From an uncultured virus (IMG/VR IMGVR_UViG_3300029787_000026) (taxonomy: Duplodnaviria; Heunggongvirae; Uroviricota; Caudoviricetes; Crassvirales), in IMG/VR virus record IMGVR_UViG_3300029787_000026: 64,000 nucleotides of DNA. One strand, 5' to 3'. Numbering within the stretch: the first letter of the stretch is position 1; each line of letters starts with the position of its first letter. Below, one piece after another: positions 5,426 to 50,971 of this stretch. A program made the position numbers and the translations under genes. The notes beneath the pieces are model-generated. The model ran no database searches and was not told the DNA's origin. It worked only from the letters and a program-made list of their open reading frames with translations.

Positions 5426-5434
5426 ATATAGAAC

Positions 5435-6121
5435 ATGGCAAAAATTTCATCGTACCAAATAGGAACACCTGATGGTTCAGACATTATAATCGGTACTGAT
5501 GTACAAACAGGCCAGACTAAGAATTTTTCCATCAACGCTATTGGTAGTGTTGTAAAAGATTCTAATGTAAGCTGGCAATTTAAAACTTCAGATAGTGAAG
5601 GAATACCTGAAAGAAGTTCTATATACTTTCCTTCGTTTGGTGGTAACAATACTTTGTTTCAAAACATAACAGAGTTAATGATAACGCCAATAATGAAAAA
5701 TAGCTCTAACGCTTTACCATATTTACAGTCGTTGGTGAGTGATGAAATATTTATACAAAATAGAAACAACTTAGGACAATTTGGTGTTTTTACTTTAAAC
5801 TCTTTAACATTAGAGAATGTTTCTGGTAATTATCTTATGGACTTAACGTTTGTAAGTGGTAACGGTGGTTTGCAATTTATGCAGTACTACGGTATAGTTA
5901 AAGAGCCAGAACAAAGCGGTAGTGGTGATAAAACGTTTGTTTATGAACAAGGATTACCATCATCGACGTGGGTTATAACTCATGATTTACAAAAATTTCC
6001 TTCGGTTACTGTCGTAGATAGTGCCAACTCTACTGTAGAGGGTGGAATAACATACAATAACGAAAATGAATTAACACTGACTTTTTCTGCTGCATTTTCA
6101 GGAAAAGCATATTTAAACTAA
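5435..6121 (+). CDS. Tail fibre-associated structural protein
   Basis: N-terminus resembles that of the 3215 ORF; C-terminal WVITHDL..PSVTVVD...FSGKAYLN module. Confidence 0.6.
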   Translation: MAKISSYQIGTPDGSDIIIGTDVQTGQTKNFSINAIGSVVKDSNVSWQFKTSDSEGIPERSSIYFPSFGGNNTLFQNITELMITPIMKNSSNALPYLQSLVSDEIFIQNRNNLGQFGVFTLNSLTLENVSGNYLMDLTFVSGNGGLQFMQYYGIVKEPEQSGSGDKTFVYEQGLPSSTWVITHDLQKFPSVTVVDSANSTVEGGITYNNENELTLTFSAAFSGKAYLN

Positions 6122-6126
6122 AAACA

Positions 6127-7827
6127 ATGGCAATAAATTTTTTAAACACTCTACAGTTTAACAACAACGAATCGTTAAACTTTAGACTACAAAATCTTGG
6201 GACAGATCCAACCACTGATCTACAAGAAGGTAGATTATACTACCATGATACTGACGACGTCGTAAAGGTATATACTATAGACGCTGGAGGAAACGGAGCT
6301 TGGGTTGAAGTAGGTGGCGGAGTAACAAGTGTTGGCGCCTCTATTGATGGTGACGCGGTAGCAATATCAAATTCACCTATAACAAGTAGTGGTACTATAG
6401 CTTTTAATTTTCAAGGAGATAATACTGAGTATATTGATGGTCAAGGAGATCTAGTAAGTTTCCCAACCATACCATCAGTACCTAGCAATATAGTAGAGAC
6501 ATTTAGTAATAGTAATGGTACATACGTATCGGCTACAACAGAGAATAGCTCAGCAACAGGTGATGTAAGTGTTGGTACTCTAGATCTTTCAGCTGTAGAC
6601 GCTACTGGTGCTGCTGCCTCATCACTTAGATTTTTAAGTAAAGACAACGAATGGATTGTTCCAGCTTATACATCTTCAGGTATAGGTGGTAGTGGTACTG
6701 TTAACAGAATGGCTAAATTTACGCCAGATGGATCTAATATAGGTAATTCCACAATGACTGATAATGGAACCGATGTTAGCATAACAGGTAACTTTAGCAT
6801 TGGAGGTGGAAAACTTACAACTAATTCCGTAGTAACATTTGATTACTCTGGTAGTGGTGATCTAGTAATTGGTGATTTTGATGGTGGTGATGAAGTAAGT
6901 AAGCTAGAATTAAAAACAATGGGTCTAGTACTTGTTGAACTTACAGATGATGAATACGTAAACAAAGCTAGTGAAGTTACTTTTGAGAACGAAGTTAATA
7001 TACCTTTAGTTCCTACAGATACTACGCATGCTACATCTAAGCAATATGTTGATGGTTTAGTTTCCGGTGGTTTAACATTCAAAGGAACATTTAGAGCTGA
7101 TAGTGGTTTAATATTATCAGGCTCTGATTCTGGATCATATTTATATAACTGCCCAGGTGGAGCAGGCACTAGAATAGCTGTTGCTGTTGGAGACTACTAT
7201 GTGGTTGCAACTAGTGGTGGTTCTTTCTATTGTTCAGGTGATACACTAGATATTGGTGATTCAATTATAGGTGTAACTGCAGCTGCCGCAAGCGCTTCAA
7301 CTTCAGCTAACTGGTCGATTGTTCAGTCTGATGAGGGTGTTACTGATATTAACTCTGCTGACGGAACAGCTTCTACAGGTGAAGCAATTACAGGTAACAC
7401 AAGCGCAACAGGATCTGTAACACTAAATGTATTTGAATATGCTGGAACTACAAATGTGGGTTATGTGCCCTCAGGTGGTTCTTCTACTACGTTCTTACGT
7501 GGTGATGGTACTTGGGTTACTCCAAGCGCAGGGGCTTTAGGTGCTAAAGTAGGTTTAGATGCAGCTAATGATGGTGTTGGTAATCAAACTAGCGCACCAA
7601 CAGGAACAACAGGTTGGCAGATAGATGTTAGCGATAATGCTTTATTTGGTTCGAACGTTGATGCTGTAGATGTTAAAATTGAAGTTATACAAAAAGAAAC
7701 TGATGGTGGAGCAACTGTTTATCCATCTGTTACAAGAGCTAACGAGTTTATAACAGTTAATTTTACCAACTTACCATCCGCACCAAGTGCTGGAGATTAT
7801 ATAGCTTTACTTACTAAAGTTGGTTAA
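6127..7827 (+). CDS. Tail fibre protein
   Basis: ATSKQYVD and FLRGDGTW fibre motifs; G/S/T-rich. Confidence 0.75.
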   Translation: MAINFLNTLQFNNNESLNFRLQNLGTDPTTDLQEGRLYYHDTDDVVKVYTIDAGGNGAWVEVGGGVTSVGASIDGDAVAISNSPITSSGTIAFNFQGDNTEYIDGQGDLVSFPTIPSVPSNIVETFSNSNGTYVSATTENSSATGDVSVGTLDLSAVDATGAAASSLRFLSKDNEWIVPAYTSSGIGGSGTVNRMAKFTPDGSNIGNSTMTDNGTDVSITGNFSIGGGKLTTNSVVTFDYSGSGDLVIGDFDGGDEVSKLELKTMGLVLVELTDDEYVNKASEVTFENEVNIPLVPTDTTHATSKQYVDGLVSGGLTFKGTFRADSGLILSGSDSGSYLYNCPGGAGTRIAVAVGDYYVVATSGGSFYCSGDTLDIGDSIIGVTAAAASASTSANWSIVQSDEGVTDINSADGTASTGEAITGNTSATGSVTLNVFEYAGTTNVGYVPSGGSSTTFLRGDGTWVTPSAGALGAKVGLDAANDGVGNQTSAPTGTTGWQIDVSDNALFGSNVDAVDVKIEVIQKETDGGATVYPSVTRANEFITVNFTNLPSAPSAGDYIALLTKVG

Positions 7828-7843
7828 AAACTAATTTAATTAT

Positions 7844-10303
7844 ATGTCAATAGGATTATTAAACAATTCAAATGTTTACGGATCACTGTTAGTGTATCCA
7901 GAACAAAATAGTACCTTATCTACTTATACGTTTAAAGGTGAGGTAGATGATAATCTTATAAAGATAGGTGGTTTTGCTAATTCAACTGGTTACTCAGGTG
8001 TAGTTGAAGGTATAAAAATACTACCGCAGAATAGCCACTACATAACAAGGGTCACACCAAGATTTGAGGTGTGGCCTTATGAGCCAGTAGCTGATACTGT
8101 TGTAAATACTTACAGCACTGCTTTTTTTGGTTCCTCATTAATTGTTGGTAGTGAAAACACTAGCATTGGTGATGCTGCTTCTACGAATTTAGCTATTGTA
8201 GGATTCAACAACACGTTGAGTGGTGATAAAATGCTAGTAGTTGGACAAGGTAATACAGTTAGGGGTAGTAACGTTTCATCTTTACTAGTTGGTACTACTA
8301 ACACGTTAACTTCGCCTGGAGCTATAATAAACTCAGGTGTGTTTGGTCAAAATCACGGTATTAGCCACAGTGTAACTAGAAGTATTTATAGCGGTATAAA
8401 TAACCAAACAACTGGCAACGCTACAAATGTTTTAATAGCTGGTTCTGGCTTATCAATTAGTGGTAACAACAGCTCTGTGTTTGGCGCTAACAACGAAATA
8501 AAAAGTGCTAGTAATGCTTTAGCTGGTGGGTTTAATAATGAAATAAAAAACAATTCAAGTTCAAGTAATATAAATTATTACGGCACAGTAATGTTTGGTT
8601 GGAGTAATAGCTCTCAAAACGATTCTAGCTCTACTAATAATACTAAATCTTCACTTATAGTAGGTAGAAACAATCAAATGAGACCAAACTCAAAAGGAGC
8701 TATAGAAAGTATGATTGTAGGCGGTTATAATAATTACGCCTACGCTGGGGCTGATAGAGGTTTAATTGTTGGATCTAACAATGTTATTATTGGTAATGGA
8801 TCCTTTACAAGTCAAGACAGTCCTGATGTTTCGGTTTTTGATTCATCAATAGTTGCAGGTAACGCAAACTACGTAGATGCAATAGATAGTATACTTGTAG
8901 GTAGAGCTAATGGCGAATTGCAATCTGGTGGTGGCGCTAATACTTACTACCCTATACGAGGAAAAGAACTACTTATAATAGGTAATAATCATACATCTAA
9001 CAGTGATAGCACTAAAGGTTGTTTTGCTATTGGAAATAATGTAACAATAAACAGTGGGGCTAATTCAGTAGGATTTATAGGGGCAAATATGTCTGGTGGT
9101 GGTAGCAACAGTTTATATGTAGGTAACAGCCACTCTGGTAGTAATAATAATTCACTTATTAGTGGAGCCAACAATAACGCAAATACCACAAGCACAACTG
9201 GTAGCACATCTCAAATATGCTTAATAAGCGGTAGAGGGAATACTAACAGAGGAACATTAAACTTTATACTAGGTGCTAGCAATAGCGTATATGGTAGTAA
9301 TACCGGTAACAACTTTTCAATAGGTAACGCAAATGTAACTGGTATACCCGGAACTAGTGGACCAACACTTACTAATAAAACAGTAGTAATAGGTTTTAAT
9401 AACACTTGTCAAAAAAATCAAAAAATACTAATAGGTAAAAATTTAATTCAATCTACCAGTTACAATACAGGTACTGGAGATGATTGTGTTATACTAGGAG
9501 AAAGTAATGATTATACAAATTCTCACTATGACAAAACAGGACTATCCCCTGCTTTTATTGTCGGAGCTTCTACTTCAAGTGGCTCAACCACAAGAAGAGA
9601 TGGTTTAATAATAACAAACAGAACTAGTAGTACTAAAGAAAGCTGTGTTATACTACCTACGGTAGGTAAAAACCACAACTACCCTAACGACGCTTCAGCA
9701 GCTATAGGTGGTGTACCACTATATGGTGTATATCATACCGATGGTGATCTTAAAATAAGATTAACATCTGACACTGGTTTTACGTCATATAGCAGTAGCA
9801 CACGTGAAACAACTCAATCAAATGCATGTGCTGGAACAGCTAACCAAACCTACTATCACTCTGGAACATCTACATATCCTGTAGTAGGTGATACATGTAT
9901 GTCCAGAAGTGGATCAGGCACTGGTAATTATACTTTTACAAAACTAATGGGAGGTTGGTACTTATTAGGAAACGCAGGATTAATACAAATAAATTCAGTA
10001 GGCGTAATGATTGCCTCAGCGTCATGTCCTAATGAACTAATAGATTTTGAAGCTACCGCTAGCAATTTCAACGGTATATGCGCATTTGGAACTAGTTTGC
10101 CGGTTCCAACTACAACATACTACCACGATGGTGAAGGTACTTTCCCTGTAGCTGGTGAAAAAATGTTTACTAATTCTACTGGTACTACTCCAGCATCTGC
10201 AGGTTACTACTACTTATATGACGCTGGCTGTGACAATGTATACGTAAGAATTACAGCTAGTGACGGAACCGTGCTAGAGCAAACTCAATGTACAGTGTGT
10301 TAA
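7844..10303 (+). CDS. Tail spike/fibre with long beta-roll repeat region and Cys-containing C-terminal repeats
   Basis: Many [IVF]GxxN repeats; two TYYHxG..[YF]PVxG[DE] modules. Confidence 0.75.
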   Translation: MSIGLLNNSNVYGSLLVYPEQNSTLSTYTFKGEVDDNLIKIGGFANSTGYSGVVEGIKILPQNSHYITRVTPRFEVWPYEPVADTVVNTYSTAFFGSSLIVGSENTSIGDAASTNLAIVGFNNTLSGDKMLVVGQGNTVRGSNVSSLLVGTTNTLTSPGAIINSGVFGQNHGISHSVTRSIYSGINNQTTGNATNVLIAGSGLSISGNNSSVFGANNEIKSASNALAGGFNNEIKNNSSSSNINYYGTVMFGWSNSSQNDSSSTNNTKSSLIVGRNNQMRPNSKGAIESMIVGGYNNYAYAGADRGLIVGSNNVIIGNGSFTSQDSPDVSVFDSSIVAGNANYVDAIDSILVGRANGELQSGGGANTYYPIRGKELLIIGNNHTSNSDSTKGCFAIGNNVTINSGANSVGFIGANMSGGGSNSLYVGNSHSGSNNNSLISGANNNANTTSTTGSTSQICLISGRGNTNRGTLNFILGASNSVYGSNTGNNFSIGNANVTGIPGTSGPTLTNKTVVIGFNNTCQKNQKILIGKNLIQSTSYNTGTGDDCVILGESNDYTNSHYDKTGLSPAFIVGASTSSGSTTRRDGLIITNRTSSTKESCVILPTVGKNHNYPNDASAAIGGVPLYGVYHTDGDLKIRLTSDTGFTSYSSSTRETTQSNACAGTANQTYYHSGTSTYPVVGDTCMSRSGSGTGNYTFTKLMGGWYLLGNAGLIQINSVGVMIASASCPNELIDFEATASNFNGICAFGTSLPVPTTTYYHDGEGTFPVAGEKMFTNSTGTTPASAGYYYLYDAGCDNVYVRITASDGTVLEQTQCTVC

Positions 10304-10708: not shown

Positions 10709-12262
10709 ATGTCAGATAAGATTGTAAAAAATCTTAACTTTGGTGATGAAGCCAAAGAAAAGATATTCAACGGTATAGATAAACTCACTAAAGCTGTTAG
10801 CTCCACTCTTGGGGCTAGCGGCCAGTGTGTTATACTGGAGAATCAAAACGGAAAACCTATTATAACAAAAGACGGTGTAACTGTTGCAGAGTCTATTGTT
10901 TTGTTAGACCCTGTAGAAAATATGGGTGCTACACTGCTAAAGCAAGCTGCTAAACAAACAGTACAAGAAGCAGGTGATGGAACAACTACCGCGACAGTAT
11001 TAGCTCATGCTATATTACATGAAGCTAGTAAAAAAGAAGGTAGTGTAAGAGAAATAAAAGAAGGTATTAACGATGCTGTTAATCAAGTTATAGAATACTT
11101 AGAAGACAATGCGATAAAAGTATCTGGAGATACTATTGATCAAGTTGCTACAATATCTACTAACAACGATGAAAAGTTAGGTAAAATAATAGGTAAAGCT
11201 TTTAAAGCTGTAAATGAAACAGGAGTTGTTATAATGGAACCAACTACACATAATGAAACTAGTGTAGAAATTGTAGACGGTGTTCAATATAATAAAGGCC
11301 TTATAAATGATAACTTTATTACTAGTAAAGAAAAAAGAGTTGCTGAGTTAGAAAACCCTTGGGTGTTAATAATTGAGTCACCAGTAAACACTATTAGACA
11401 AATACAAAGTGTGTTAGAGTTTGTAATAAAAAATAACAAACCTCTACTTATTATAGGTGATTTAGAACCACCAGTGGTATCAGCACTTGCTATGAATAAA
11501 GTAAAAGGAAATATAAAAATTAATGTTGTTAATGCTCCTACTTATGGTATTAATAAAAAAGACACACTTAATGATCTTTCAATATTAACTGGAGCTACAG
11601 TTATAAACGAAGAGCTAGGTGATGATTTAACTATTATACAACAAGAGCATTTAGGACAATGTATAAAAAGCAGTACGAATGATAACGAAACTATTATACA
11701 AGTTGATACATCTAATAGCGAGGTTCAAGAGTTGGTTAAAGAAGTTAAAAAACAACTGGAAGAAGCTGGTAGCCCAGGTGAAATCATTCAGCTTGAAAAA
11801 CGCCTTGCTCGTCTCTCCGCTAAAGTGGCTGTTGTCAAAGTTGGAGCCAACTCAGAAGTAGAGTTAAAAGAAAAAAGTGATAGAATAGAAGATGCTATAT
11901 GCGCTACAAAAGCAGCTGTTAAAGAAGGTATAGTTGCTGGAGGTGGTGTTGCTTTGTATGATGCTTCTCTTTTTTTAGTAAAAAAATCAGAAGGACATAT
12001 GGCTTTATTAAAAGCTTTAACATATCCTTTTACTACTATATTAGAAAACGCTGGTTTAGTTGACTATAACAAACCAACAGGAAATGGTACTGGTATAAAT
12101 GTAATAACCGGTGATGAAGTAAACATGATAAAAGAAGGTATAGTAGATCCTTTACTTGTAACTAAAAGCGCTTTAAAAAACGCTGCATCAGTTGCAACAA
12201 CTATATTATCTACAGATTGCGTTATTAACAATTTAAGAGTTGGAGATGAAAGCAATAGGTAG
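10709..12262 (+). CDS. groEL: Chaperonin GroEL (phage-encoded)
   Basis: ITKDGVTVA, AGDGTTTATVLA and EGIVAGGG motifs; no C-terminal GGM tail. Confidence 0.97.
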   Translation: MSDKIVKNLNFGDEAKEKIFNGIDKLTKAVSSTLGASGQCVILENQNGKPIITKDGVTVAESIVLLDPVENMGATLLKQAAKQTVQEAGDGTTTATVLAHAILHEASKKEGSVREIKEGINDAVNQVIEYLEDNAIKVSGDTIDQVATISTNNDEKLGKIIGKAFKAVNETGVVIMEPTTHNETSVEIVDGVQYNKGLINDNFITSKEKRVAELENPWVLIIESPVNTIRQIQSVLEFVIKNNKPLLIIGDLEPPVVSALAMNKVKGNIKINVVNAPTYGINKKDTLNDLSILTGATVINEELGDDLTIIQQEHLGQCIKSSTNDNETIIQVDTSNSEVQELVKEVKKQLEEAGSPGEIIQLEKRLARLSAKVAVVKVGANSEVELKEKSDRIEDAICATKAAVKEGIVAGGGVALYDASLFLVKKSEGHMALLKALTYPFTTILENAGLVDYNKPTGNGTGINVITGDEVNMIKEGIVDPLLVTKSALKNAASVATTILSTDCVINNLRVGDESNR

Positions 12263-14288: not shown

Positions 14289-14504
14289 ATGGCAAATCAT
14301 TATAAAAATGACCCACACGCAGAAATGCACGGCAAAGGAAAAGTAGGTATAGTAGGTGAATCTTATATATGGGACGGACCACTAGATCAGCAAGGTAGAT
14401 TACACGCTCCAGGTTGGAGTGCAGGTATAACAGGTATGCAAATATCAAAGTATCCTAGTAAATATATAGCTGGACCTATTACTACTATTGCTAAAATGGG
14501 TTAA
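14289..14504 (+). CDS. Small hypothetical protein
   Basis: 71 aa; TAATG coupling to the amidase gene. Confidence 0.65.
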   Translation: MANHYKNDPHAEMHGKGKVGIVGESYIWDGPLDQQGRLHAPGWSAGITGMQISKYPSKYIAGPITTIAKMG

Positions 14505-14914
14505 TGAGGGATATAGACAAAATCATTATACATTGCTCTGCTACACAAGAAGGTAAAGAAATATCTGCAGCTACAATAGATAAATGGCACAAAGCTAGAG
14601 GGTGGCGTGGTATAGGTTATCATTTTGTTGTTGCGCTTGATGGTACTATTGAATATGGAAGAGCTTTAAATAAAGTGGGAGCTCACGTAAAAGGGCATAA
14701 TAAAAGTAGTATAGGAATTTGTTATATTGGAGGTTTAGATTCAGTCTCTAAGACTGCAAAAGATACTAGAACACCAGAACAAATAGCTACACTGCTTGAA
14801 CTATTAAGAGTATTAAAAAAGCTACATCCTGGGGTAACAATACATGGTCACAATGAATTTGCGGCTAAATCTTGCCCTTGTTTTGATGTTCAAGCTGAAT
14901 ATTGTAATTTATAA
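14504..14914 (+). CDS. Endolysin, N-acetylmuramoyl-L-alanine amidase (T7 lysozyme-like)
   Basis: IIIHCSAT, IGYH, GAHVKGHN, HGHNEF..KSCPCF zinc-amidase motifs. Confidence 0.93.
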   Translation: MRDIDKIIIHCSATQEGKEISAATIDKWHKARGWRGIGYHFVVALDGTIEYGRALNKVGAHVKGHNKSSIGICYIGGLDSVSKTAKDTRTPEQIATLLELLRVLKKLHPGVTIHGHNEFAAKSCPCFDVQAEYCNL

Positions 14915-18141: not shown

Positions 18142-18339
18142 ATGAGTATCAAGGGTTATAAAAAAGATAGTCCCGACGTTAACAAACCATACAACGTTAT
18201 TCCCGGAGGTAATATTACTATGAAAGGTGTTGAGTTTAAAGTACTTGGCACTGATGATAGAGGGTATACTAAAGTTATGTATCCTGGTTATGATTATACA
18301 TTTCCAGGTGCAAAGTATGTTGTTGAAAAGAAAATGTAA
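18142..18339 (+). CDS. Small conserved protein (IP..NITMKGV...MYPG..Y.FPG)
   Basis: ATG 18142 follows the upstream stop; 65 aa. Confidence 0.7.
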   Translation: MSIKGYKKDSPDVNKPYNVIPGGNITMKGVEFKVLGTDDRGYTKVMYPGYDYTFPGAKYVVEKKM

Positions 18340-18797
18340 TGAGTGATAAAAGAAAAAAGTTTAAAGACACTAAAGTCGGACAATTTTTATTAGGTAAATC
18401 AGGTCTTGTACAAGCCATAGGAGATGTGATGCCGGATAAAGGCTTGTTAGGCATAGTTAAAAACTTAATAAATAACGATCCAGAATTACCACCAGAAGAT
18501 AAAGAAAAAGCCATGAAGCTATTAGAGCTTGACATGGTTGAAATGGAAGAGGTTTCAAAACGCTGGGTTAGCGATATGAAATCAGATTCATGGTTAAGTA
18601 AAAACACTAGACCTATGTCACTTATATTTTTAACAGTATCTATGGTATTGTTTATAATATTAGATAGTTTTGAATGGGGTTTTAGTGTAGAAAAAAGTTG
18701 GGTAGATTTACTCAAAACACTTTTAGTTACTGTTTATGTAGCCTATTTTGGTTCACGTGGAGCGGAAAAATTTAAAAGTATAAGTAATAATAAATAG
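18339..18797 (+). CDS. Holin of the 3TM (GTA-type) family
   Basis: RWxxDMxSDSWLSKNTRP plus hydrophobic segments ending YFGSR. Confidence 0.75.
   Translation: MSDKRKKFKDTKVGQFLLGKSGLVQAIGDVMPDKGLLGIVKNLINNDPELPPEDKEKAMKLLELDMVEMEEVSKRWVSDMKSDSWLSKNTRPMSLIFLTVSMVLFIILDSFEWGFSVEKSWVDLLKTLLVTVYVAYFGSRGAEKFKSISNNK
18764..18792 (+). promoter_or_regulatory. Class II promoter GGAAA-N15-GTAATAATA
   Basis: At the holin 3' end, upstream of the packaging operon. Confidence 0.5.
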
Positions 18798-19063: not shown

Positions 19064-19277
19064 AATAAGAAAAATTAGCATAGGTTCTGAATACAAGGAT
19101 AATGCGATGCACTATTCAGTCGGTCAAGAGGTTTATGGAAACCATATCATAAGTGATATAATTAAAGACGAAGAAAACGCTTACAACATTTTTATAAAAA
19201 AGAACAACGAAGTATTACCGTGGAAAAAATTTAATTCTAACATGGCTATATCTGTTGAGTATGATTTACAATATTAA
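19041..19277 (+). CDS. Small hypothetical protein
   Basis: 78-aa ORF coupled to the next gene; start uncertain. Confidence 0.65.
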   Translation: MKKKVESKIRKISIGSEYKDNAMHYSVGQEVYGNHIISDIIKDEENAYNIFIKKNNEVLPWKKFNSNMAISVEYDLQY

Positions 19278-19882
19278 TGAAAAGTATTTGGAATTTTATC
19301 GTTAAACCGATAGGTGATCGATATGATAATTCTATAAAAGTAGAAGACAAAGACTTAATACTAAATAGTAGTATAGAAAAGTTTAAGTTTATAAATAGAA
19401 AAGCAGTTGTTATGAATGTACCAACAGCTTACAATACTGTTATAGAAGAGGGAGATGAGGTTATTATACATCACAATGTTTTTAGAAGATACTATAATGT
19501 TAAAGGTGAAGCTGTAGACAGTAGCAAGAAATTCAAAGAGGATATGTTTTTTTGTCAACCCGATCAAATATATCTTTATAAACGTGTTGTTAAATGGCAC
19601 TCGTTTGGTACTAGATGTTTTGTTATGCCTATTAAAAATAATAACAATCTAACGCTTGAAAAAGAGCAAAAGAATGTTGGTATACTTAAACACGGTAATA
19701 AGCTCTTAGAAGTGCAGGGAATAAACGAGGGAGATCTTGTTGGCTTTCCTAACAATCGTGAATTTGAGTTTATAATAAATAATCAACGATTATATTGTTT
19801 AGACGTTGATGACATTTTAATTAAATATGAATATAAAGGAAACGAAGAAGAGTATAATCCAAGCTGGGCAAAAAGCAGTTGA
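19277..19882 (+). CDS. Tandem GroES-like domain protein
   Basis: Two similar halves: FIVKPI...AVV..VP...IEEGDEVII and FVMPI...GIL..G...INEGDLVGF. Confidence 0.6.
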   Translation: MKSIWNFIVKPIGDRYDNSIKVEDKDLILNSSIEKFKFINRKAVVMNVPTAYNTVIEEGDEVIIHHNVFRRYYNVKGEAVDSSKKFKEDMFFCQPDQIYLYKRVVKWHSFGTRCFVMPIKNNNNLTLEKEQKNVGILKHGNKLLEVQGINEGDLVGFPNNREFEFIINNQRLYCLDVDDILIKYEYKGNEEEYNPSWAKSS

Positions 19883-20099
19883 TGAGTTAATTAAGGTCGC
19901 TAAAGAACCTATTGTAGATTCAGACGATGACATATCAGCTGATCGTTTAAAAAACGCAGCAGCTACAAAAAAGTTAGCAATATTCGATGCGTTTGAAATA
20001 CTCCAACGCATACAAGAAGAAGAAAATTTATTAAATGAAAAACCTAAAAAAACTAAAGAAAGAAGTTTTAAAGGGTTTGCAGAAGGAAGATCTACGTAA
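19827..20099 (+). CDS. Putative terminase small subunit
   Basis: Helical 90-aa protein coupled (TAATG) to the large subunit. Confidence 0.55.
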   Translation: MNIKETKKSIIQAGQKAVDELIKVAKEPIVDSDDDISADRLKNAAATKKLAIFDAFEILQRIQEEENLLNEKPKKTKERSFKGFAEGRST

Positions 20100-22303
20100 T
20101 GTATAAGCAAGATTTATATAAAGTACTAGAAGATCACATTAAACCTCATGTTTTAAAAAAACTAAATAGAGGTAAAAAATGGAAATATGGTTATAACGAA
20201 GAACACGATGTTGTAGTTATAAGTAAAAGTGGTGAGATTGGTGATGTGTATGAAATACAAAATTTAAAAATTGCGTTACCAAAACAAAGTGATGTAGTTA
20301 AATTTGATAACAATACGTGGAATAGGTCAATCATACCTGAAGAGTTAAAAAAAATAAAAACAAGATTTGACTGGGAAAATTATCCTATAGAATTTAAAGA
20401 AGACTGGTATGATTACATTGATAAAGAATTTATTAGAAGAGAACAGGGCTTTTGGTTCTATAATAAAGGTGTGGCTACTTACCTTACTGGTACTCACTAT
20501 ATGTACCTGCAGTGGTCCAAGATTGATGTTGGGAAACCAGATTTTAGGGAAGCAAATAGATTATTCTACATTTTCTGGGAAGCTTGTAAAGCAGACGCCA
20601 GAAGTTATGGAATGTGCTATCTTAAAAATCGTAGATCAGGATTTTCGTTTATGGCCTCAGGAGAAGTGGTTAATCTTGCAACTATTAATTCCGACTCACG
20701 GTACGGAATATTGTCCAAATCTGGGCCCGATGCAAAAACAATGTTCACTGATAAAGTCGTCCCAATATCGGTCAATTACCCGTTCTTTTTCAAACCAATA
20801 CAGGACGGTATGGACCGTCCCAAGACCGAGCTTGCCTACAGGGTACCAGCATCCAAGTTCACAAGAAGGAAACTCGACACCAACGAGACCAAGACCGATC
20901 TTGCAGGACTCGATACCACTATCGATTGGAAAAATACCGGCGACAACTCCTATGATGGAGAGAAGCTTAAACTCCTCGTTCACGACGAATCCGGTAAGTG
21001 GGAAAGGCCAAACAACATCCTCAACAACTGGCGTGTTACGAAAACAACATTACGATTAGGTAGTAGAGTAGTAGGTAAATGCATGATGGGATCAACTAGC
21101 AATGCGCTAGACAAAGGTGGAGAAAACTTTAAAAAACTTTACTATGACTCAGATGTTACAAAAAGAAACGCCAATGGACAGACTCGCTCAGGACTATATA
21201 GTTTGTTCATACCTATGGAATGGAACTACGAAGGATACATTGATTCTTATGGCGTACCTGTATTCGAGGACCCAAAAGAAAAAACTATTGGACCGCATGG
21301 GAATAAAATAAATTTAGGTGTAATAAATTATTGGCAAAATGAAGTTGATGGTTTAAAAGGAGATCAAGAAGCTTTAAATGAATTTTATAGACAATTTCCA
21401 AGAACCGAGCAACACGCTTTTAGAGATGAAGCAAAATCATCTTTATTTAATCTAACTAAAATATATCAACAGGTTGATTACAATGAAGATATTAGAAACA
21501 CCAACGTAATAACAAAAGGTTCTTTTCGTTGGGAAAATGGAACTCAAGACACAAAAGTTATTTTTTACCCAAACAATGACGGTAGGTTTTTAATTAGTTG
21601 GGTTCCACCGTTGCATCTACAAAATAATGTAGTATTAAAAAAAGGATTAAAATATCCTGGAAACGAACACATAGGCGCTTTTGGCTGTGATAGTTATGAC
21701 ATATCAGGAACCGTGGATAGAAGAGGATCTAACGGTGCTTTACATGGTTTAACCAAGTTTAGCATGGAAGACGCACCTCCAAATCAATTTTTTTTAGAGT
21801 ATATAGCTAGACCTCAAACAGCTGAAATATTTTTTGAAGACGTATTAATGGCTTGTATTTTTTATGGCATGCCAATATTAGCAGAAAACAATAAACCTAG
21901 ATTATTATATCATTTTAAAAGAAGAGGTTATAGAGGTTTTAGTATGAATAGACCTGATAAATTAAAGTTATCAGTTACTGAAAGAGAAATAGGTGGTATA
22001 CCTAACTCTAGTGAAGACATGAAGCAGGCTCACGCGGCAGCTATAGAAACATATATAGAACAACACGTGGGTTTATTAAGTCAAGGTTACGGTAATATGT
22101 ATTTTCAAAGAACATTAAATGACTGGGCTAGATTTAATATAAACAATAGAACAAAACATGATGCATCAATTAGCTCTGGTTTAGCGTTAATGGCGTGTAA
22201 CAAACATAGATATAGACCAATATCAGAACGTGTTGTACAATCAAGTCCTTTAGGATTTAAAAAATATAATAATAAAGGACATATGTCAAAAATAATTAAG
22301 TAA
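20099..22303 (+). CDS. Terminase large subunit
   Basis: KNRRSGFS Walker A-like, LLVHDESGK Walker B, GSTS coupling motif, FGCDSYD and LAENN nuclease motifs. Confidence 0.9.
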   Translation: MYKQDLYKVLEDHIKPHVLKKLNRGKKWKYGYNEEHDVVVISKSGEIGDVYEIQNLKIALPKQSDVVKFDNNTWNRSIIPEELKKIKTRFDWENYPIEFKEDWYDYIDKEFIRREQGFWFYNKGVATYLTGTHYMYLQWSKIDVGKPDFREANRLFYIFWEACKADARSYGMCYLKNRRSGFSFMASGEVVNLATINSDSRYGILSKSGPDAKTMFTDKVVPISVNYPFFFKPIQDGMDRPKTELAYRVPASKFTRRKLDTNETKTDLAGLDTTIDWKNTGDNSYDGEKLKLLVHDESGKWERPNNILNNWRVTKTTLRLGSRVVGKCMMGSTSNALDKGGENFKKLYYDSDVTKRNANGQTRSGLYSLFIPMEWNYEGYIDSYGVPVFEDPKEKTIGPHGNKINLGVINYWQNEVDGLKGDQEALNEFYRQFPRTEQHAFRDEAKSSLFNLTKIYQQVDYNEDIRNTNVITKGSFRWENGTQDTKVIFYPNNDGRFLISWVPPLHLQNNVVLKKGLKYPGNEHIGAFGCDSYDISGTVDRRGSNGALHGLTKFSMEDAPPNQFFLEYIARPQTAEIFFEDVLMACIFYGMPILAENNKPRLLYHFKRRGYRGFSMNRPDKLKLSVTEREIGGIPNSSEDMKQAHAAAIETYIEQHVGLLSQGYGNMYFQRTLNDWARFNINNRTKHDASISSGLALMACNKHRYRPISERVVQSSPLGFKKYNNKGHMSKIIK
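20409..21059 (+). CDS. Putative overlapping (+1 frame) lipoprotein-like gene inside the terminase gene
   Basis: 216 stop-free codons; terminase Leu/Ile/Val codons avoid NTA before purines here; KVWLLTLLVLTICTC signal-like segment. Confidence 0.5.
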   Translation: MITLIKNLLEENRAFGSIIKVWLLTLLVLTICTCSGPRLMLGNQILGKQIDYSTFSGKLVKQTPEVMECAILKIVDQDFRLWPQEKWLILQLLIPTHGTEYCPNLGPMQKQCSLIKSSQYRSITRSFSNQYRTVWTVPRPSLPTGYQHPSSQEGNSTPTRPRPILQDSIPLSIGKIPATTPMMERSLNSSFTTNPVSGKGQTTSSTTGVLRKQHYD

Positions 22304-24740
22304 ATGAATATATATACAAATCCAAATAGTTCTTTCCCTAGTCAGGTGGTACCAGACGAAGAGAAAAGCACAATGGAATATGGATTAGCAGTTGCTAGAG
22401 CTATAGAAGGTGAATGGTGGGCTGGTGATAGAGGTCTTGGAGCAGCCGGTAGGTTTGGAAACAACTGGCAGTATTTTAATTCTTTAAGATTATATGCTAG
22501 AGGAGAACAGTCAGTACAAAAATATAAAGATGAGTTATCAATAAATGGTGACTTAAGCTATTTAAATCTTGATTGGAAACCAGTACCTATTATACCAAAA
22601 TTTGTAGACATATTAGTAAACGGTATGTCATCAAAAGTTTACGATATAAAAGCTTTTGCTCAAGATCCTGAATCTGTAAAACAAAGAACAAATTACGCGG
22701 CTGGTTTAATGCGTGATATGTACGGTAAAGATTTATTAAACGAAACAAAAGAAAAAACAGGTTTAGATTTTTACACAGTAACAGATCCTGATTCTTTACC
22801 TGAATCTCAAGAAGAAATTGATTTACATATGCAATTAACTTATAAGCAATCTGTAGAGATAGCTGAAGAAGAGTTAATAGAAAATGTGTTACAAAGAAAT
22901 AGATACCAGTTAACTAAAAGAAGATTACTTCAAGATTTAGTTGTATTAGGTATAGGTTGTAGTAAGACTAGTTTTAACTTAGCTAACGGTATTAATGTTG
23001 AATATGTTGATCCTGCTAACTTAGTTTATTCTTACACTGAAGATCCTAATTTTGAAGATATATACTATGTAGGTGAAGTTAAACAAATAAGTTTAGAGGA
23101 ACTAAAAAAACAATATTCTTATTTAACACCTGAAGACCTAAAAGAAATAGAAAAATTCCCTGGTAATTCTAATTTTAGAAATAATTACTATGGTCAGTAT
23201 GATAATAACAATACTGTAAACATTTTATATTTTGAATATAAAACATATCAAGATCAAGTTTTTAAAATTAAAAGATCTGAAAATGGTTTAGAAAAAGCAT
23301 TAGAAAAACCAGATACTTTTAATCCTCCTAAAAATGACAACTTTGAAAGAGCGTCTAGATCAATAGAAGTTTTATACTCAGGAGCAAAAATACTAGGCAT
23401 GGATAAAATGCTTAGATGGGAGTTGGCAAAGAATATGACTCGACCAATGAGTAATATAGCTAAAGTAAACATGAACTACAACATATGTGCTCCTCGTATG
23501 TATAAAGGTAGAATAGAATCAACCGTTAGTCGTATTACAGCTTTTGCTGATATGATACAAATAACACATTTAAAATTACAGCAAGTATTATCTCGTATGG
23601 TACCAGATGGTGTTTTTGTAGATGTTGATGGTTTAGCAGAAGTTGATTTAGGTAATGGAACAAACTATAACCCACAAGAAGCTTTAAACATGTACTTCCA
23701 AACTGGTAGTATTGTTGGTAGAAGTTTAACACAAGAGGGTGATCCTAATAGAGGTAAAGTACCTATTCAAGAACTACAAACAAGTAGTGGTAACGCTAAG
23801 ATAGCTAGTTTAATACAAACTTATCAGTATTATTTACAAATGATTAGAGACGTGACCGGATTAAATGAGGCTAGAGATGCTAGTACTCCTGAAATAGGTT
23901 CGTTAGTTGGTTTACAAAAATTAGCAGCTGCTAATAGTAATACAGCTACAAGACACATTTTACAGTCTTGTTTNNNNNNNNNNTTGTTTGTATTTAACTT
24001 TACGTAATTGTGAAAATATAGCATTACGAGCGGCAGATGCTTTAGCATTTCCTTTAACAAGACAAGCTTTAGTTGATTCAATATCTATGTTTAATACAGC
24101 TACTCTTGGTGAGTTAATGGAAAAACAATTAATGGAGTTTGGTATATACTTAGAACTAGAACCAGATGAAGAAGAAAAAGCCATGCTAGAGCAAAATATT
24201 CAAATGGCTTTACAGCAACAAAGTATAGATTTATCTGATGCTATAGATTTAAGAGCAATAAAAAACCTTAAATTAGCTAATGCTAAATTAAAAATAGCTC
24301 AGAAAAAGAAAAGAGAAAGAGATCAACAAGCTCAAATGATGAATATACAAGCACAAGCTAAAGCCAATGCCGAAACATCAGAAGCAGCTTCTTTAGCTGA
24401 AATGCAAAAACAACAAGCTTTAACAGAATCTAAAGTTCAAATAGAGCAGGCTAAGTCTCAGTTTGAAATACAACGTATGCAAACAGAAGCTGAAATTAAA
24501 AAGCTTTTAATGGCTGAAGAGTTTAATTATAATATACAACTAGCTCAAGCTCAAATGCAGGCTGCTAAAACTAAAGAAAAAGAAATAGAAGATCGTAAAG
24601 ATAAAAGAGTAAAAATAGTGGGTACACAACAGTCACAAATGATTGATCAAAGAAAGAATGATACATTACCTACAAACTTTGAGTCAGCTGGGTTTGATAA
24701 TCTAGATGGCTTTGGCTTAGAGCAATTTGAGCCGCAATAA
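22304..24740 (+). CDS. Portal protein (one gene split by an assembly gap at 23974-23983)
   Basis: Follows the terminase; PIIPKFVDILV, TGLNEARD and Q-rich coiled-coil tail; TTGTTT flanks both sides of the N run and merging gives QSCLYLTLR in frame. Confidence 0.85.
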
Positions 24741-49270: not shown

Positions 49271-50971
49271 TTAGCCATCACAAGCAACACAATCTTCACT
49301 AGTTGCTTTGTCAGCTATATCTCCCCTCAATACAGATTCTGTTCTCATATAGTACAACGTCTTAACTCCTTTTTTCCAAGCATCAAAATGAACTTTGTTT
49401 AACCACTTAGGTGTTGACTGGCTAGGAAAAGCTAAGTTTAAACTAACAGACTGATCTATGTATTGTTGTCTTATACCTGCCTGCCTAACTAATTCTAGTT
49501 GATTTATTTCTTTAAAAGTTTTAAAAACTTCTTTTGTTTCATCGTCTAATTCTTTTATATCTTGTACTGATCCACCATCGGATAATATTTTATCCCACAC
49601 TGATCTTGTGTTTAATCCTTTTTCGTCCAATATTTTTTCAAGCGTAGGGTTTTTACGTATGAAAGTACCTTTAGCAGATTGCTCCGTGAAAACATTTGCA
49701 GCCCACGGTTCAATACCTGGCGAGATGTTTCCACTAAGTTTGCTGTTGCTAACAGTAGGAGCAATAGCGCGTAAGTGGGTATTACGAAAACCAGTTCCAG
49801 CACACCACAAAGGTTCTCCATATATCTCTGCAAGGTCCATACTAGCTCTTTCACTTTCAATTTTAATTTGTGAAAATATTTTTCTAGTTTCAAACTGAGC
49901 TGGTAAACCTTCAAAAGCAATGCTTTTTTCCTGGAGATAGGTATGCCAACCAAGAACACCAAGCCCGAGGGCGCGACCCTTTTCTGCGGAACGTACTGAG
50001 TTGGCAAAACCAATTTTGCCTTTAGCTTTTTGTATAAACTCCTCAAGCACCCCGTCAAGGAACCATATGCTGTCATAAATAATATTTGTATTTTTCCATT
50101 CATCATATTTAGCTAGGTTTAAAGAAGATAAACAACATACAAAGCTATGTGATTCATCTGTATGTAGAACTATTTCAGAACATATATTAGTCATATGTAC
50201 TTTTAAGCCGTTGTCTTTGTATGCAGCAGGGTTATTTTTGTTTGTGTTACCTTTAAATAAGATATAAGGTTCTCCAGTTGCTTTACGCTTTTGTAATAAT
50301 TTACTCCATTTTTTTCTAGCGCCTGTATCTCCCTGTTCAAGCTTCCGCATAAACTTATCGCCAACGACAGCGCATTGGTGCAAATTAAGAGACTGTCTGT
50401 TGACATCTCCCTTTGGCTCTCTAATTTCAAGCCACTCTTCGAAGTCAGCATGCTCAATGTTGATATTAACTGATGCAGCTCCTCGTCTGACAGATCCTTG
50501 ATTAGTAGCAAGGATTGTTGAGTCATATATTTTACAAAACGGCACAACGCCATCACTTGTTCCATTACCTGTTATTTTAGCTCCGGCGGGTCTTATTTGA
50601 TTTATACCGATGCCTACTCCACCGCCGTGTTTAGCGAGTAACATCATTTCTAAATTTTTAGTACCAATATCATATATACTATCAGCGACATCAATACCAA
50701 AGCAACTAATAGGTAAACCTCTATCAGTGCCTGTATTAGATAAAACTGGAGATGCTAAACATAACCAACCATTCCAAATGTATTCATAAAATATATCACA
50801 AAGCTCTGGCCGATTTAATCTTCTTGCTACTGTTTTACAAACACGCATATAAGCGTCGGCAGGTGTTTCATCTTCTAATAAATAACCTCCAGTAATAGTT
50901 TTTTTATATACATCAGTATCTCCCCACGCAGGGTAATCTACATCTTTTATCCAATTGTTATTCCAATTCAT
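49271..50971 (-). CDS. nrdA: Ribonucleotide reductase class I alpha subunit (no ATP cone)
   Basis: ISCF, GGGVG, TNICSEI, CCLSSLNL, AIAPT, IDQSVSLN, TLYY, C-terminal CVAC. Confidence 0.95.
   Translation of the reverse strand: MNWNNNWIKDVDYPAWGDTDVYKKTITGGYLLEDETPADAYMRVCKTVARRLNRPELCDIFYEYIWNGWLCLASPVLSNTGTDRGLPISCFGIDVADSIYDIGTKNLEMMLLAKHGGGVGIGINQIRPAGAKITGNGTSDGVVPFCKIYDSTILATNQGSVRRGAASVNINIEHADFEEWLEIREPKGDVNRQSLNLHQCAVVGDKFMRKLEQGDTGARKKWSKLLQKRKATGEPYILFKGNTNKNNPAAYKDNGLKVHMTNICSEIVLHTDESHSFVCCLSSLNLAKYDEWKNTNIIYDSIWFLDGVLEEFIQKAKGKIGFANSVRSAEKGRALGLGVLGWHTYLQEKSIAFEGLPAQFETRKIFSQIKIESERASMDLAEIYGEPLWCAGTGFRNTHLRAIAPTVSNSKLSGNISPGIEPWAANVFTEQSAKGTFIRKNPTLEKILDEKGLNTRSVWDKILSDGGSVQDIKELDDETKEVFKTFKEINQLELVRQAGIRQQYIDQSVSLNLAFPSQSTPKWLNKVHFDAWKKGVKTLYYMRTESVLRGDIADKATSEDCVACDG

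What the first reader, a model, noticed from the sequence alone, without database searches (positions are those of the whole stretch)
20409..21059. Hidden lipoprotein-like gene in the +1 frame of the terminase ATPase region
Seen: 216 stop-free codons. In this frame stops arise from terminase NTA codons before purines (or NTG before A), which are common in the flanks (TTA GGT, GTA GTA GGT just after). Here they are replaced by CTT/CTC/ATT/ATC/GTT/GTC, and third positions become unusually C-rich at about 20760-21030. The product has a basic-hydrophobic-Cys start (IKVWLLTLLVLTICTC) and a P/S/T-rich tail. Inference: a selected overlapping gene, possibly the outer-membrane lysis (spanin-like) or exclusion lipoprotein that is otherwise not evident. 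Caveat: +1 frames of T-ending codons are hydrophobic by default.
Basis: partly seen in the sequence, partly recalled or inferred. Interest (0 to 1): 0.7.

Follow-up and report, generated by a model that had tools for sequence, protein, structure and literature searches.

The report
Hidden gene inside phage terminase gene
A second reading frame inside the DNA-packaging (terminase) gene of a group of uncultured marine phages is kept open by selection and most likely encodes a new small protein, which gives a clean natural example of a virus writing a new gene on top of an old one.

Summary
The ORF at 20409-21059 (216 codons, ATG to TAG) lies in the +1 frame of a 734-aa TerL gene (20099-22303).

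- **Distribution.** Of 80 distinct relatives (TerL 64-82% identical), 30 keep at least 213 codons open, 19 keep 149-206 codons, and 31 have 8-18 stops.
- **GC3.** Only the ORF-bearing lineages raise TerL third-position GC. It rises to 0.40-0.65 exactly across their own ORF. It is about 0.2 elsewhere and in ORF-less relatives.
- **Stop avoidance.** Shuffles that keep the local codon usage expect about 6 stops in the +1 frame. The observed number is 0 in 31 of 31 sequences. No other frame is depleted.
- **Codon choice.** It depends on context: TTA/CTA/ATA/GTA are replaced only where a purine follows.
- **Product-level selection.** A few third positions that are not needed for stop avoidance are also fixed (CTCSG, TTSSTTG), and the ATG and a hydrophobic helix are better kept.

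I read it as an overprinted accessory gene. The product has one N-terminal hydrophobic helix and a strongly basic, S/T/P-rich tail that is predicted to be disordered. It has no homologue outside TerL +1 frames.

The lipoprotein/spanin identity is not supported, because there is no canonical lipobox. Translation and function are untested.

A second conserved +1 ORF lies in the RNR large-subunit gene.

The parts
20099..22303 (+). Host gene: terminase large subunit (TerL), 734 aa, frame 0
   Evidence: It matches phrog_6681 at E 5.6e-165 over residues 24-732. tblastn finds TerL in 87 phage records. A P22-like portal gene follows at 22304.
20409..21059 (+). Overprinted ORF in the +1 frame of TerL: 216 codons, ATG 20409-20411, TAG 21057-21059
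   Evidence: In ORF-bearing sequences there are 0 stops against 5.9 expected, in 31 of 31. The frame is open for at least 213 codons in 30 of 80 relatives and for 149-206 codons in 19 of 80.
20409..20411 (+). Proposed start codon, formed by TerL codons Tyr103 (TAT) and Asp104 (G..)
   Evidence: ATG stands at the aligned position in 29 of 31 full-length ORF sequences and in 16 of 31 ORF-less ones. Fisher p is 0.0004, not corrected for relatedness.
20460..20516 (+). Hydrophobic helix of the +1 product (residues 18-36, IIKVW...CTCSG), over TerL residues 120-140 (..THYMYLQW)
   Evidence: Kyte-Doolittle hydropathy is 1.77. AlphaFold2 predicts a helix at residues 2-34 with pLDDT 54-65. Hydropathy of residues 17-34 is at least 1.5 in 49 of 50 ORF-bearing sequences and in 15 of 31 ORF-less ones.
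20502..20516 (+). CTCSG motif. Its second Cys and its Ser depend on G-ending TerL codons (Leu TTG/CTG, Gln CAG) that are not needed to avoid stops
   Evidence: The third base is G in 97% of full-length sequences and 29% of ORF-less ones at TerL codons 136 and 137.
20699..21059 (+). GC3/C3-rich stretch of TerL, which encodes the basic, S/T/P-rich tail of the +1 product
   Evidence: GC3 is 0.50-0.60 in the window. Group means are 0.46-0.65 for full-length sequences and 0.16-0.26 for ORF-less ones, and the value falls to 0.24 at 21059. S+T+P in the tail is 0.30, against 0.10 in the virtual translation of ORF-less relatives, and mean net charge is +17.
21012..21032 (+). TTSSTTG motif of the +1 product, over TerL NNILNNW written with C-ending codons
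   Evidence: T203, S204, S205, T206 and T207 are nearly invariant and G208 is invariant in 40 aligned products. Only the Leu codon (CTC in 90% against 3%) is needed to avoid a stop.
20696..20983 (-). Antisense ORF of 95 aa: a by-product, not part of the gene
   Evidence: Its stops would be the TerL codons TTA, CTA and TCA, which the +1 ORF removes. This frame is open in only 3 of 31 full-length sequences. It is invariant under synonymous shuffling.

Best explanation
The ORF at 20409-21059 is a real protein-coding gene overprinted on the ATPase part of TerL in a clade of uncultured marine phages related to podoviruses of Flavobacteriia.

**Shown**
- Selection keeps the +1 frame free of stops.
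- Selection reshapes TerL's synonymous codons across exactly the length of the ORF.
- A few third positions are fixed even though stop avoidance does not require them.

**Inferred**
- The ORF is translated from the late TerL mRNA by internal initiation at the conserved ATG.
- The product is about 210 aa. It has one N-terminal hydrophobic helix that anchors it in, or targets it to, the cytoplasmic membrane.
- The long tail is strongly basic, S/T/P/R-rich and intrinsically disordered. Its composition and length matter more than its exact sequence.
- The gene arose de novo at the base of the clade. It is accessory and has been truncated or lost many times.

**Guess at function (about 0.3)**
It acts on the host envelope late in infection, as a lysis helper or a membrane-directed accessory. 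Its architecture is that of a phiX174 E-like protein (transmembrane helix plus basic tail), not that of a lipoprotein spanin.
For: 1. **Conservation of the open frame.** Among the window plus 80 distinct relatives (79 IMG/VR loci and MW202828.1; L001 is identical to the window and was dropped), the stop-to-stop +1 frame covers at least 213 codons in 31, 149-206 codons in 19, and fewer than 100 codons in 31.
2. **Stop avoidance is specific to one register.** With local codon usage kept, full-length sequences have 0 stops against 5.93 expected, with P<=0.05 in 31 of 31. The +2, -1 and -2 frames are not depleted (24.2 against 20.9; 10.1 against 9.9; 18.4 against 17.1). In the truncated forms, at most 1.6% of shuffles have no stop, in 19 of 19.
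3. **Independence of the lineages.** The 31 full-length sequences fall into 16-27 clusters by synonymous difference, and their mean synonymous codon difference inside the ORF is 0.448.
4. **GC3 follows each lineage's own ORF.** It is 0.40-0.65 in full-length sequences against 0.16-0.30 in ORF-less ones, identical outside the ORF, and GC at codon positions 1 and 2 is unchanged. In truncated forms GC3 is 0.46 in the 40 codons before their own stop and 0.24 after it.
5. **Codon choice depends on context**.
6. **Signals at the level of the product.**
   - Five of 214 third positions inside the ORF are fixed as G or C in full-length sequences and rare in ORF-less ones, against 0 of 505 outside (p = 0.002). 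Four of the five are not needed for stop avoidance.
   - The ATG is present in 29 of 31 against 16 of 31.
   - The hydrophobic helix is present in 49 of 50 against 15 of 31.
   - Hydrophobic residues in the tail are 0.25, against 0.44 in the virtual product of ORF-less relatives.
   - Site-specific codon information is 0.306 inside against 0.246 outside.
   - Synonymous difference is 0.72 of saturation inside against 0.82 outside.
7. **No homologue other than TerL +1 frames.** There are 89 hits without name or Pfam domain and 156 cluster representatives. There is no match in 50,697 phage records.
8. **Origin.** The outgroup clade (L047-L050, L081) lacks the ORF.
9. **Variants among close strains.** Of 40 listed variants, 6 fall in the ORF. 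None makes a premature stop except Y215*, two codons from the end.
Against: - There is no evidence of transcription start, translation or protein.
- Raw synonymous variability is not reduced inside the overlap (0.448 against 0.367).
- An OLGenie-style dNN/dNS is 0.93 (CI 0.76-1.16). The statistic misbehaved on a control region, giving 0.71.
- AlphaFold2 gives no fold: mean pLDDT is 38.6 and residues 34-216 are below 50.
- Much of the product's apparent conservation is forced by TerL. This includes three of the four nearly invariant Cys and the ATG through the WYD motif.
- The Bacteroidetes-type TAnnTTTG motif is not enriched upstream (15 of 31 against 17 of 31).
- Position -3 before the ATG is a forced G.
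- 31 of 80 relatives do without the ORF.
- The phage already has an amidase and a holin, so a lysis role is not required.
- The strongly basic tail argues against export across the membrane.
Confidence: 0.72

Rival explanations
1. The open frame is a by-product of a GC3-rich patch that exists for another reason, such as recombination with a GC-richer relative, mRNA structure, or local codon tuning for TerL translation.
For: - The patch and the ORF end together, which either causal direction would produce.
- An antisense ORF is also open in the window.
- Trees of the inside and outside of the region disagree, so recombination within TerL is likely.
- Raw synonymous variability is not reduced.
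Against: - Shuffles that keep the patch's codon usage still expect 4.5-9 stops, and none is seen in 31 of 31 sequences. Only the +1 register is depleted.
- NTA codons are tolerated before pyrimidines and replaced before purines.
- GC at codon positions 1 and 2 is unchanged.
- The antisense frame is open in only 3 of 31.
- Sixteen to 27 separately diverged lineages keep the frame.
Confidence: 0.06
2. The +1 frame is kept open as the landing frame of a programmed +1 ribosomal frameshift. This would make a trans-frame protein: the TerL N-terminus fused to the alternative tail.
For: - In several relatives the +1 frame is open 30-50 codons upstream of the ATG.
- Database proteins exist that start in the TerL frame and continue in the +1 frame, for example P0060, P0067, P0072 and P0088.
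Against: - Those chimeras switch frame at different places and in both directions, as indel errors in assemblies would.
- An ATG stands at the aligned start in 29 of 31 sequences.
- In the window and about ten relatives a +1 stop lies six codons upstream of it.
- No shift site was looked for systematically.
Confidence: 0.08
3. The ORF is translated, but the peptide itself does not matter. Translation in the +1 frame would tune TerL expression, and the polar composition would only keep the by-product harmless.
For: - The exact sequence at TerL-synonymous sites varies freely (dSN about 2).
- The tail length varies from about 150 to 220 aa.
- No fold is predicted.
Against: - Third positions that stop avoidance does not require are fixed (CTCSG, S172, TTSSTTG).
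- The hydrophobic helix is conserved in 49 of 50.
- A regulatory ORF would not need more than 200 codons.
Confidence: 0.08
4. One reading: the product is an outer-membrane lipoprotein, either an o-spanin or an exclusion lipoprotein, cleaved and lipidated at one of the N-terminal cysteines.
For: - It has a basic and hydrophobic N-terminus followed by Cys32 and Cys34.
- Cys34 and Ser35 are held by selected G-ending codons.
- The tail is rich in P, S and T.
- No spanin was recognised among the 45 window proteins scanned against PHROGs.
Against: - The residue at -1 is I or T for Cys32 and T for Cys34, so no match to the lipobox rule (a recalled rule).
- The gene is not in the lysis cassette (amidase at 14504-14914, holin at 18339-18797).
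- At 216 aa, with a tail of net charge +9 to +27, it is unlike Rz1-type proteins.
- No partner i-spanin was found.
Confidence: 0.06

Closest known systems
Rz1 (o-spanin) embedded in the +1 frame of Rz in phage lambda (recalled knowledge)
   Same: It is a same-strand gene wholly nested in the +1 frame of another late phage gene, with a proline-rich product directed at the envelope.
   Different: Rz1 is about 60 aa, has a canonical lipobox, and sits inside its functional partner in the lysis cassette. Here the ORF is 216 codons, has no canonical lipobox, lies inside TerL, and has a strongly basic tail.
phiX174 lysis gene E inside scaffold gene D. [quoted passage not shown] The other details are recalled.
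   Same: It is a +1-frame gene overprinted on a morphogenesis gene. The product has an N-terminal transmembrane helix followed by a basic, poorly constrained C-terminal part.
   Different: E is 91 aa and is the only lysis gene of a small ssDNA phage. This phage has an amidase and a holin. There is no sequence similarity, and lysis activity was not tested.
Embedded single-gene lysis (sgl) genes of ssRNA phages (PMC7693330; abstract seen in the listing)
   Same: They are small, lineage-restricted genes that evolved de novo, are embedded in other genes, and lack sequence similarity to anything.
   Different: Those phages have genomes of 3-4 genes and their sgl genes are much shorter. Here the genome is a dsDNA phage genome of more than 60 kb.
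Experimentally proven overlapping genes of eukaryotic viruses (PMC6195259; abstract read)
   Same: The composition is biased towards high-degeneracy amino acids (S, R, L, P, T). The distribution is typical of an accessory gene, and the gene is missed by annotation.
   Different: This is a bacterial virus. Presence and absence are polymorphic among close relatives, so the codon-level cost can be read directly. Expression is not proven.

Membership tests
Overprinted (nested, same-strand) viral gene | The ORF lies wholly inside an older gene, in another frame | tested here: met
   20409-21059 lies inside TerL 20099-22303 in the +1 frame.
Overprinted (nested, same-strand) viral gene | The frame is kept open in diverged relatives beyond what codon usage predicts | tested here: met
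   There are 0 stops against 5.93 expected in 31 of 31 full-length sequences. In 19 of 19 truncated forms at most 1.6% of shuffles have no stop. Other frames are not depleted.
Overprinted (nested, same-strand) viral gene | Restricted distribution and no homologue outside the overlap | tested here: met
   The outgroup clade lacks it. Hits are only unnamed proteins resembling TerL +1 frames. There is no match in 50,697 phage records.
Overprinted (nested, same-strand) viral gene | Reduced synonymous variability of the host gene across the overlap | tested here: inconclusive
   The raw value is 0.448 inside against 0.367 outside. Relative to saturation it is 0.72 against 0.82. Site-specific information is 0.306 against 0.246. 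dNN/dNS is 0.93 and not significant, and the control misbehaves. TerL-synonymous variants among close strains number 4 in 651 nt against 23 in 1554 nt, p = 0.065, from a truncated list.
Overprinted (nested, same-strand) viral gene | The product is shown to be expressed | not testable with these tools
   Only contigs of RNA runs were available. No ribosome profiling or proteomics could be done.
Bacterial lipoprotein (Sec/SPII signal) | A charged n-region and a hydrophobic h-region | tested here: met
   K6, R13 and K20 are followed by a hydrophobic stretch with Kyte-Doolittle hydropathy 1.77. The stretch is conserved in 49 of 50.
Bacterial lipoprotein (Sec/SPII signal) | A lipobox [LVI][ASTVI][GAS]C, with a small residue at -1 | tested here: not met
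   A regex of the recalled PROSITE-style rule finds nothing in the first 45 residues. The residue at -1 is I or T throughout the family. SignalP was not available.
o-spanin (Rz1 type) | A lipoprotein gene within or beside an i-spanin gene in the lysis cassette | tested here: not met
   The gene lies in TerL. The amidase is at 14504-14914 and the holin at 18339-18797. No spanin family was hit.
i-spanin (Rz type) | An N-terminal transmembrane helix plus a periplasmic coiled-coil domain | tested here: inconclusive
   A helix at residues 2-34 is predicted. The rest has no helices except at 77-91, but pLDDT is below 50, so the model says little.
phiX174 E-type single-gene lysis protein | A +1-frame gene inside a morphogenesis gene, whose product has an N-terminal transmembrane helix and a basic tail | tested here: met
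   (tail net charge +9 to +27). This is a resemblance of architecture only.
phiX174 E-type single-gene lysis protein | It is the sole lysis function of the phage and causes lysis when expressed | tested here: not met
   The window encodes an amidase (phrog_822, 2.8e-59) and a holin (phrog_3427, 1.1e-19). Lysis activity itself is not testable here.

The most novel reading that the evidence does not exclude
Marine phages of Flavobacteriia hide several de novo genes inside their most conserved core genes: TerL, the RNR large subunit and perhaps primase. The TerL-embedded one would be a young, still polymorphic envelope effector built from a transmembrane helix and a polycationic disordered tail. 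It would serve as an E-like or disruptin-like lysis or exclusion factor, filling the missing outer-membrane step of lysis in these hosts. Its birth, truncation and loss can all be read in extant genomes.
Probability: 0.25. Interest if true: 0.82.

Novelty: new member of a known kind. Interest (0 to 1): 0.68.

Why it matters
- **Rarity.** Long, fully nested genes are textbook material for tiny phages, but they are rarely documented in core genes of tailed dsDNA phages, and annotation pipelines discard them.
- **A built-in control.** Closely related lineages with and without the ORF stand side by side, so the price the old gene pays is visible codon by codon: Leu TTA becomes CTC only before purines, and GC3 rises from about 0.2 to about 0.6.
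- **Use as a test case.** This makes a clean test case for methods that detect overlapping genes and for models of de novo gene birth. It shows a disordered, high-degeneracy composition, truncation and repeated loss.
- **Practical consequences.** TerL is the standard phylogenetic marker for phages, and a hidden second gene distorts its synonymous sites and composition. TerL-synonymous recoding or mutagenesis in such phages would not be neutral.
- **Generality.** The second conserved +1 ORF in the RNR gene suggests the phenomenon is not isolated.
- **Literature.** Five full-text searches found no report of a gene nested in a phage TerL. The systematic review PMC8227390 contains the word 'terminase' 0 times.

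Tried and rejected
- **OLGenie-style dNN/dNS.** The value was 0.93 and not significant. A control region without an ORF gave 0.71, so I do not rely on the statistic.
- **AlphaFold2 on a 40-sequence alignment.** Mean pLDDT was 38.6. No fold search was run, because a low-confidence model gives meaningless matches.
- **ESM Atlas look-alikes.** No usable hit.
- **Pfam and PHROGs on the product.** No family.
- **tblastn of the product against 50,697 phage records.** No match.
- **Profile search of 1.84 billion representatives.** There were 156 hits. All are short, unnamed proteins, apart from two long low-complexity matches (P0220, P0226). Genomic context could not be fetched, so that these are TerL +1 frames is inferred from their motifs.
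- **Internal promoter.** TAnnTTTG is as common in ORF-less relatives (17 of 31) as in ORF-bearing ones (15 of 31).
- **Gene-content comparison.** I compared 6 ORF-bearing and 5 ORF-less contigs looking for a complementary gene. Nothing convincing emerged. The one apparent anti-correlated cluster is the small gene upstream of TerL, masked in my ORF caller by a longer antisense ORF. Most of the contigs are partial.
- **Trees.** The careful IQ-TREE search did not finish, so a quick tree was used. The inside-region FastTree is weakly supported. I therefore cannot separate repeated loss from recombination.
- **Sequencing runs.** Only contigs were available. RNA-library contigs at 88-95% likeness cover parts of TerL, but they show neither transcription nor 5' ends. 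The joints listed come from mixed relatives.
- **The window's own assembly.** It is not held. The nearest record, G001, is identical over TerL and adds nothing.
- **Antisense ORF 20696-20983.** Rejected as a by-product.
Full report
**What is there**

The window is a phage genome segment of about 34% GC.
- Genes recognised include GroEL/GroES-like genes, an amidase (14504-14914), a holin (18339-18797), TerL (20099-22303; phrog_6681, E 5.6e-165), a P22-like portal, virion proteins, and an RNR/thymidylate synthase/primase module on the minus strand.
- The nearest deposited phages are an uncultured Caudoviricetes genome (MW202828.1, TerL 62.7% identical) and podoviruses of Flavobacterium, Cellulophaga, Tenacibaculum and Maribacter (44% or less).
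- The same sequence occurs in marine metagenomes of several studies.
- TerL GC3 jumps from about 0.15 to 0.50-0.60, and C3 to 0.30-0.42, across 20699-21058.

**Is it more than chance?**

I shuffled synonymous codons only within the ORF region. This keeps the TerL protein and the locally raised GC3.
- The window then expects 5.4 stops in the +1 frame, and 0.1% of shuffles have none.
- Over 214 windows of 200 codons in 29 genes, +1 stops occur at 0.95 of expectation. There is therefore no general depletion. The extreme windows belong to three genes only: RNR, primase and TerL.

**Relatives**

A scan of IMG/VR found more than 604 TerL relatives, of which the best 80 were kept. L001 is the same sequence as the window and was dropped. 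MW202828.1 was added.

On a codon alignment of the window plus 80 relatives, the state of the +1 frame falls into three classes:

| Class | Sequences | +1 frame | Region GC3 |
|---|---|---|---|
| Full-length | 31 (window + 30) | at least 213 codons open | 0.41-0.55 |
| Truncated | 19 | 149-206 codons open, cut short at the 3' end | raised up to their own stop |
| ORF-less | 31 | 8-18 stops | mostly 0.11-0.30; 0.41-0.47 only in GC-richer L050 and L081 (gene-wide 0.42-0.46) |

- The group GC3 profiles coincide outside the ORF (about 0.1-0.3). They differ only between about 20459 and 21058. At 21059 the full-length group drops from 0.63 to 0.24. GC at codon positions 1 and 2 is the same in all groups.
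- Truncated forms have GC3 of 0.46 in the 40 codons before their own stop and 0.24 after it.

**Register-specific stop avoidance**

With local shuffles:

| Group and frame | Observed stops | Expected stops |
|---|---|---|
| Full-length, +1 | 0 | 5.93 |
| Full-length, +2 | 24.2 | 20.9 |
| Full-length, -1 | 10.1 | 9.9 |
| Full-length, -2 | 18.4 | 17.1 |
| ORF-less, +1 | 11.3 | 13.4 |

- In the full-length group P<=0.05 holds in 31 of 31 sequences.
- In all 19 truncated forms, at most 1.6% of shuffles have no stop.
- The codon-level picture explains this. At conserved Leu, Ile and Val codons followed by a purine, ORF-less sequences use TTA/CTA/ATA/GTA and ORF-bearing ones use CTT/CTC/ATT/ATC/GTT/GTC. 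At codon 307, for example, CTC stands in 28 of 31 ORF-bearing sequences and TTA in 21 of 31 ORF-less ones.
- ATA is kept in 25 of 31 ORF-bearing sequences at codon 195, where the next base is T.
- TTA is kept at codon 317, where it makes the ORF's own stop in most lineages.
- The sequences are not near-copies. Mean synonymous codon difference inside the ORF is 0.448, and they form 16-27 clusters depending on the threshold.

A composition patch of any other origin does not predict this register-specific, context-dependent pattern.

**Is the protein, and not only the open frame, under selection?**

The evidence is real but modest.

For:
- Five of 214 third positions inside the ORF are at least 90% G or C in ORF-bearing sequences and at most 30% in ORF-less ones. 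Outside, the count is 0 of 505 (p = 0.002). Four of the five are not needed to avoid a stop. They turn CIYNG into CTCSG, Leu into Ser172, and Lys into Arg.
- TerL NNILNNW is written almost invariably with C-ending codons, giving TTSSTTG.
- The ATG is present in 29 of 31 against 16 of 31.
- The hydrophobic segment has Kyte-Doolittle hydropathy of at least 1.5 in 49 of 50 against 15 of 31.
- The tail is 30% S+T+P and 25% hydrophobic. The virtual translation of ORF-less relatives is 10% and 44%.
- Site-specific codon information is 0.306 inside against 0.246 outside; in ORF-less sequences it is 0.140 against 0.158.
- Synonymous difference reaches 72% of its saturation value inside against 82% outside.

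Against:
- Raw synonymous difference is not reduced.
- My OLGenie-style ratio is 0.93 and not significant, and it fails its control.
- Most of the product's alignment is dictated by TerL. Cys32, Cys69 and Cys112 come from TerL Met codons followed by T, and the ATG comes from the WYD motif.
- Among close strains in metagenomes, 6 of the 40 best-supported variants (of 200) fall in the ORF. Four of these are TerL-synonymous (Q130R, A178V, Q201R, Y215*). None truncates the ORF by more than two codons. The density of TerL-synonymous variants is 4 in 651 nt against 23 in 1554 nt (p = 0.065).

**What the product looks like**

- It is about 210 aa. A hydrophobic helix lies near the N-terminus: residues 18-36, a core of 16-17 residues between K20 and R/K38. 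AlphaFold2 places a helix at residues 2-34 with pLDDT 54-65.
- About 180 residues follow that are predicted to be disordered (pLDDT below 50), rich in S, T, P, R and Q, with net charge +9 to +27.
- It has no Pfam or PHROG family and no Atlas look-alike.
- It has 89 and 156 database relatives. All are unnamed and, by their motifs, are TerL +1 frames. Some are chimeras that switch frame at varying points, as indel errors would.
- None is found in 50,697 deposited phage genomes.

**Evolution**

- The outgroup clade (L047-L050, L081) lacks the ORF.
- L070, the deepest member of the 76-sequence clade, has it, but with a different N-terminal part.
- Inside the clade the states are interspersed. Well-supported branches of a quick tree of the TerL parts outside the overlap force at least 7-10 changes.
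- A tree of the overlap region clusters the ORF-bearing sequences more tightly: 11 changes, of which 2 are forced.
- The most economical reading is one origin by overprinting, followed by repeated truncation and loss, and probably exchange of the segment by recombination. I could not separate these.

**Mechanism and function**

- The steps shown are selection on the open frame, on composition and on a few residues.
- The steps inferred are internal initiation at the ATG on the late TerL mRNA and a membrane-associated, disordered, polycationic product. No separate promoter signal was found.
- The lipoprotein/spanin identity fails its defining test: no small residue stands before either Cys (the rule is recalled, and SignalP was unavailable). 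The gene also lies outside the lysis cassette.
- The nearest analogue in architecture is phiX174 E: +1 frame inside a morphogenesis gene, a transmembrane helix and a basic tail. However, this phage has its own amidase and holin, so any lysis role would be auxiliary.
- I put about 0.3 on an envelope or lysis-related function. The rest is open.

**Seen in passing**

- The RNR large-subunit gene carries a +1 ORF at 50565-50203 on the minus strand (120 codons). It is free of internal stops in 78 of 81 sequences: 0.16 observed against 3.66 expected, with P<=0.05 in 77 of 81. Synonymous difference among relatives is 0.46, and there is no GC3 rise.
- The primase gene has a weaker candidate.

Noticed in passing
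window 50203-50565, minus strand (inside the RNR large-subunit gene 49271-50971): This is a second candidate overprinted gene: a 120-codon +1-frame ORF with an ATG start, bounded by stops at both ends in relatives. It has no internal stop in 78 of 81 sequences (the window plus 80 IMG/VR relatives with RNR 83-87% identical). Stops are 0.16 observed against 3.66 expected under local shuffles, with P<=0.05 in 77 of 81, and there is no GC3 rise. It has no PHROG family.
   Followed up: partly
window 49612-50106, minus strand (same RNR gene, +1 frame): This 164-codon ORF has a lipobox-like GSLTGC near its start. The window has 0 stops against 5.0 expected, but the frame is fully open only in the window (1 of 81). 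The median longest open stretch in relatives is 131 codons.
   Followed up: partly
window 55894-56247, minus strand (inside the primase/helicase gene 55616-56953): This 117-codon +1-frame ORF has 0 stops against 2.96 expected (P = 0.001). The gene is among the three outliers for +1 stop depletion. It has only a marginal PHROG hit (E 0.0075). Relatives were not examined.
   Followed up: no
window 19817-20110, minus strand: This 97-aa antisense ORF covers the 90-aa gene just upstream of TerL (19827-20099). An equivalent antisense ORF longer than the sense gene appears in 8 of 11 compared contigs. It is probably a by-product of the Lys/Glu-rich sense gene, but this was not tested.
   Followed up: no
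window 10709-12262 and 19277-19882: The phage encodes chaperonin-like genes: GroEL-like (phrog_5725, E 2.2e-134) and GroES-like (phrog_13932, E 6e-21).
   Followed up: no
window 40273-48855 and 3215-10303: A 2860-aa ORF and three ORFs of 566-819 aa have no PHROG match, or only marginal ones. They also have no counterpart in the ten compared contigs. They look like variable host-interaction or tail modules.
   Followed up: no
window 23974-23983 and 55671-55680: Two runs of 10 N interrupt the portal ORF and the primase ORF, so the ends of those ORFs in ORF lists are artefacts.
   Followed up: no
database proteins P0056, P0060, P0067, P0068, P0072, P0074, P0077, P0088: These gene calls in other assemblies are chimeras of the TerL frame and the +1 frame. 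They switch at different positions and in both directions. They are most simply indel errors, made visible because the +1 frame is open. A shared shift site was not looked for.
   Followed up: partly
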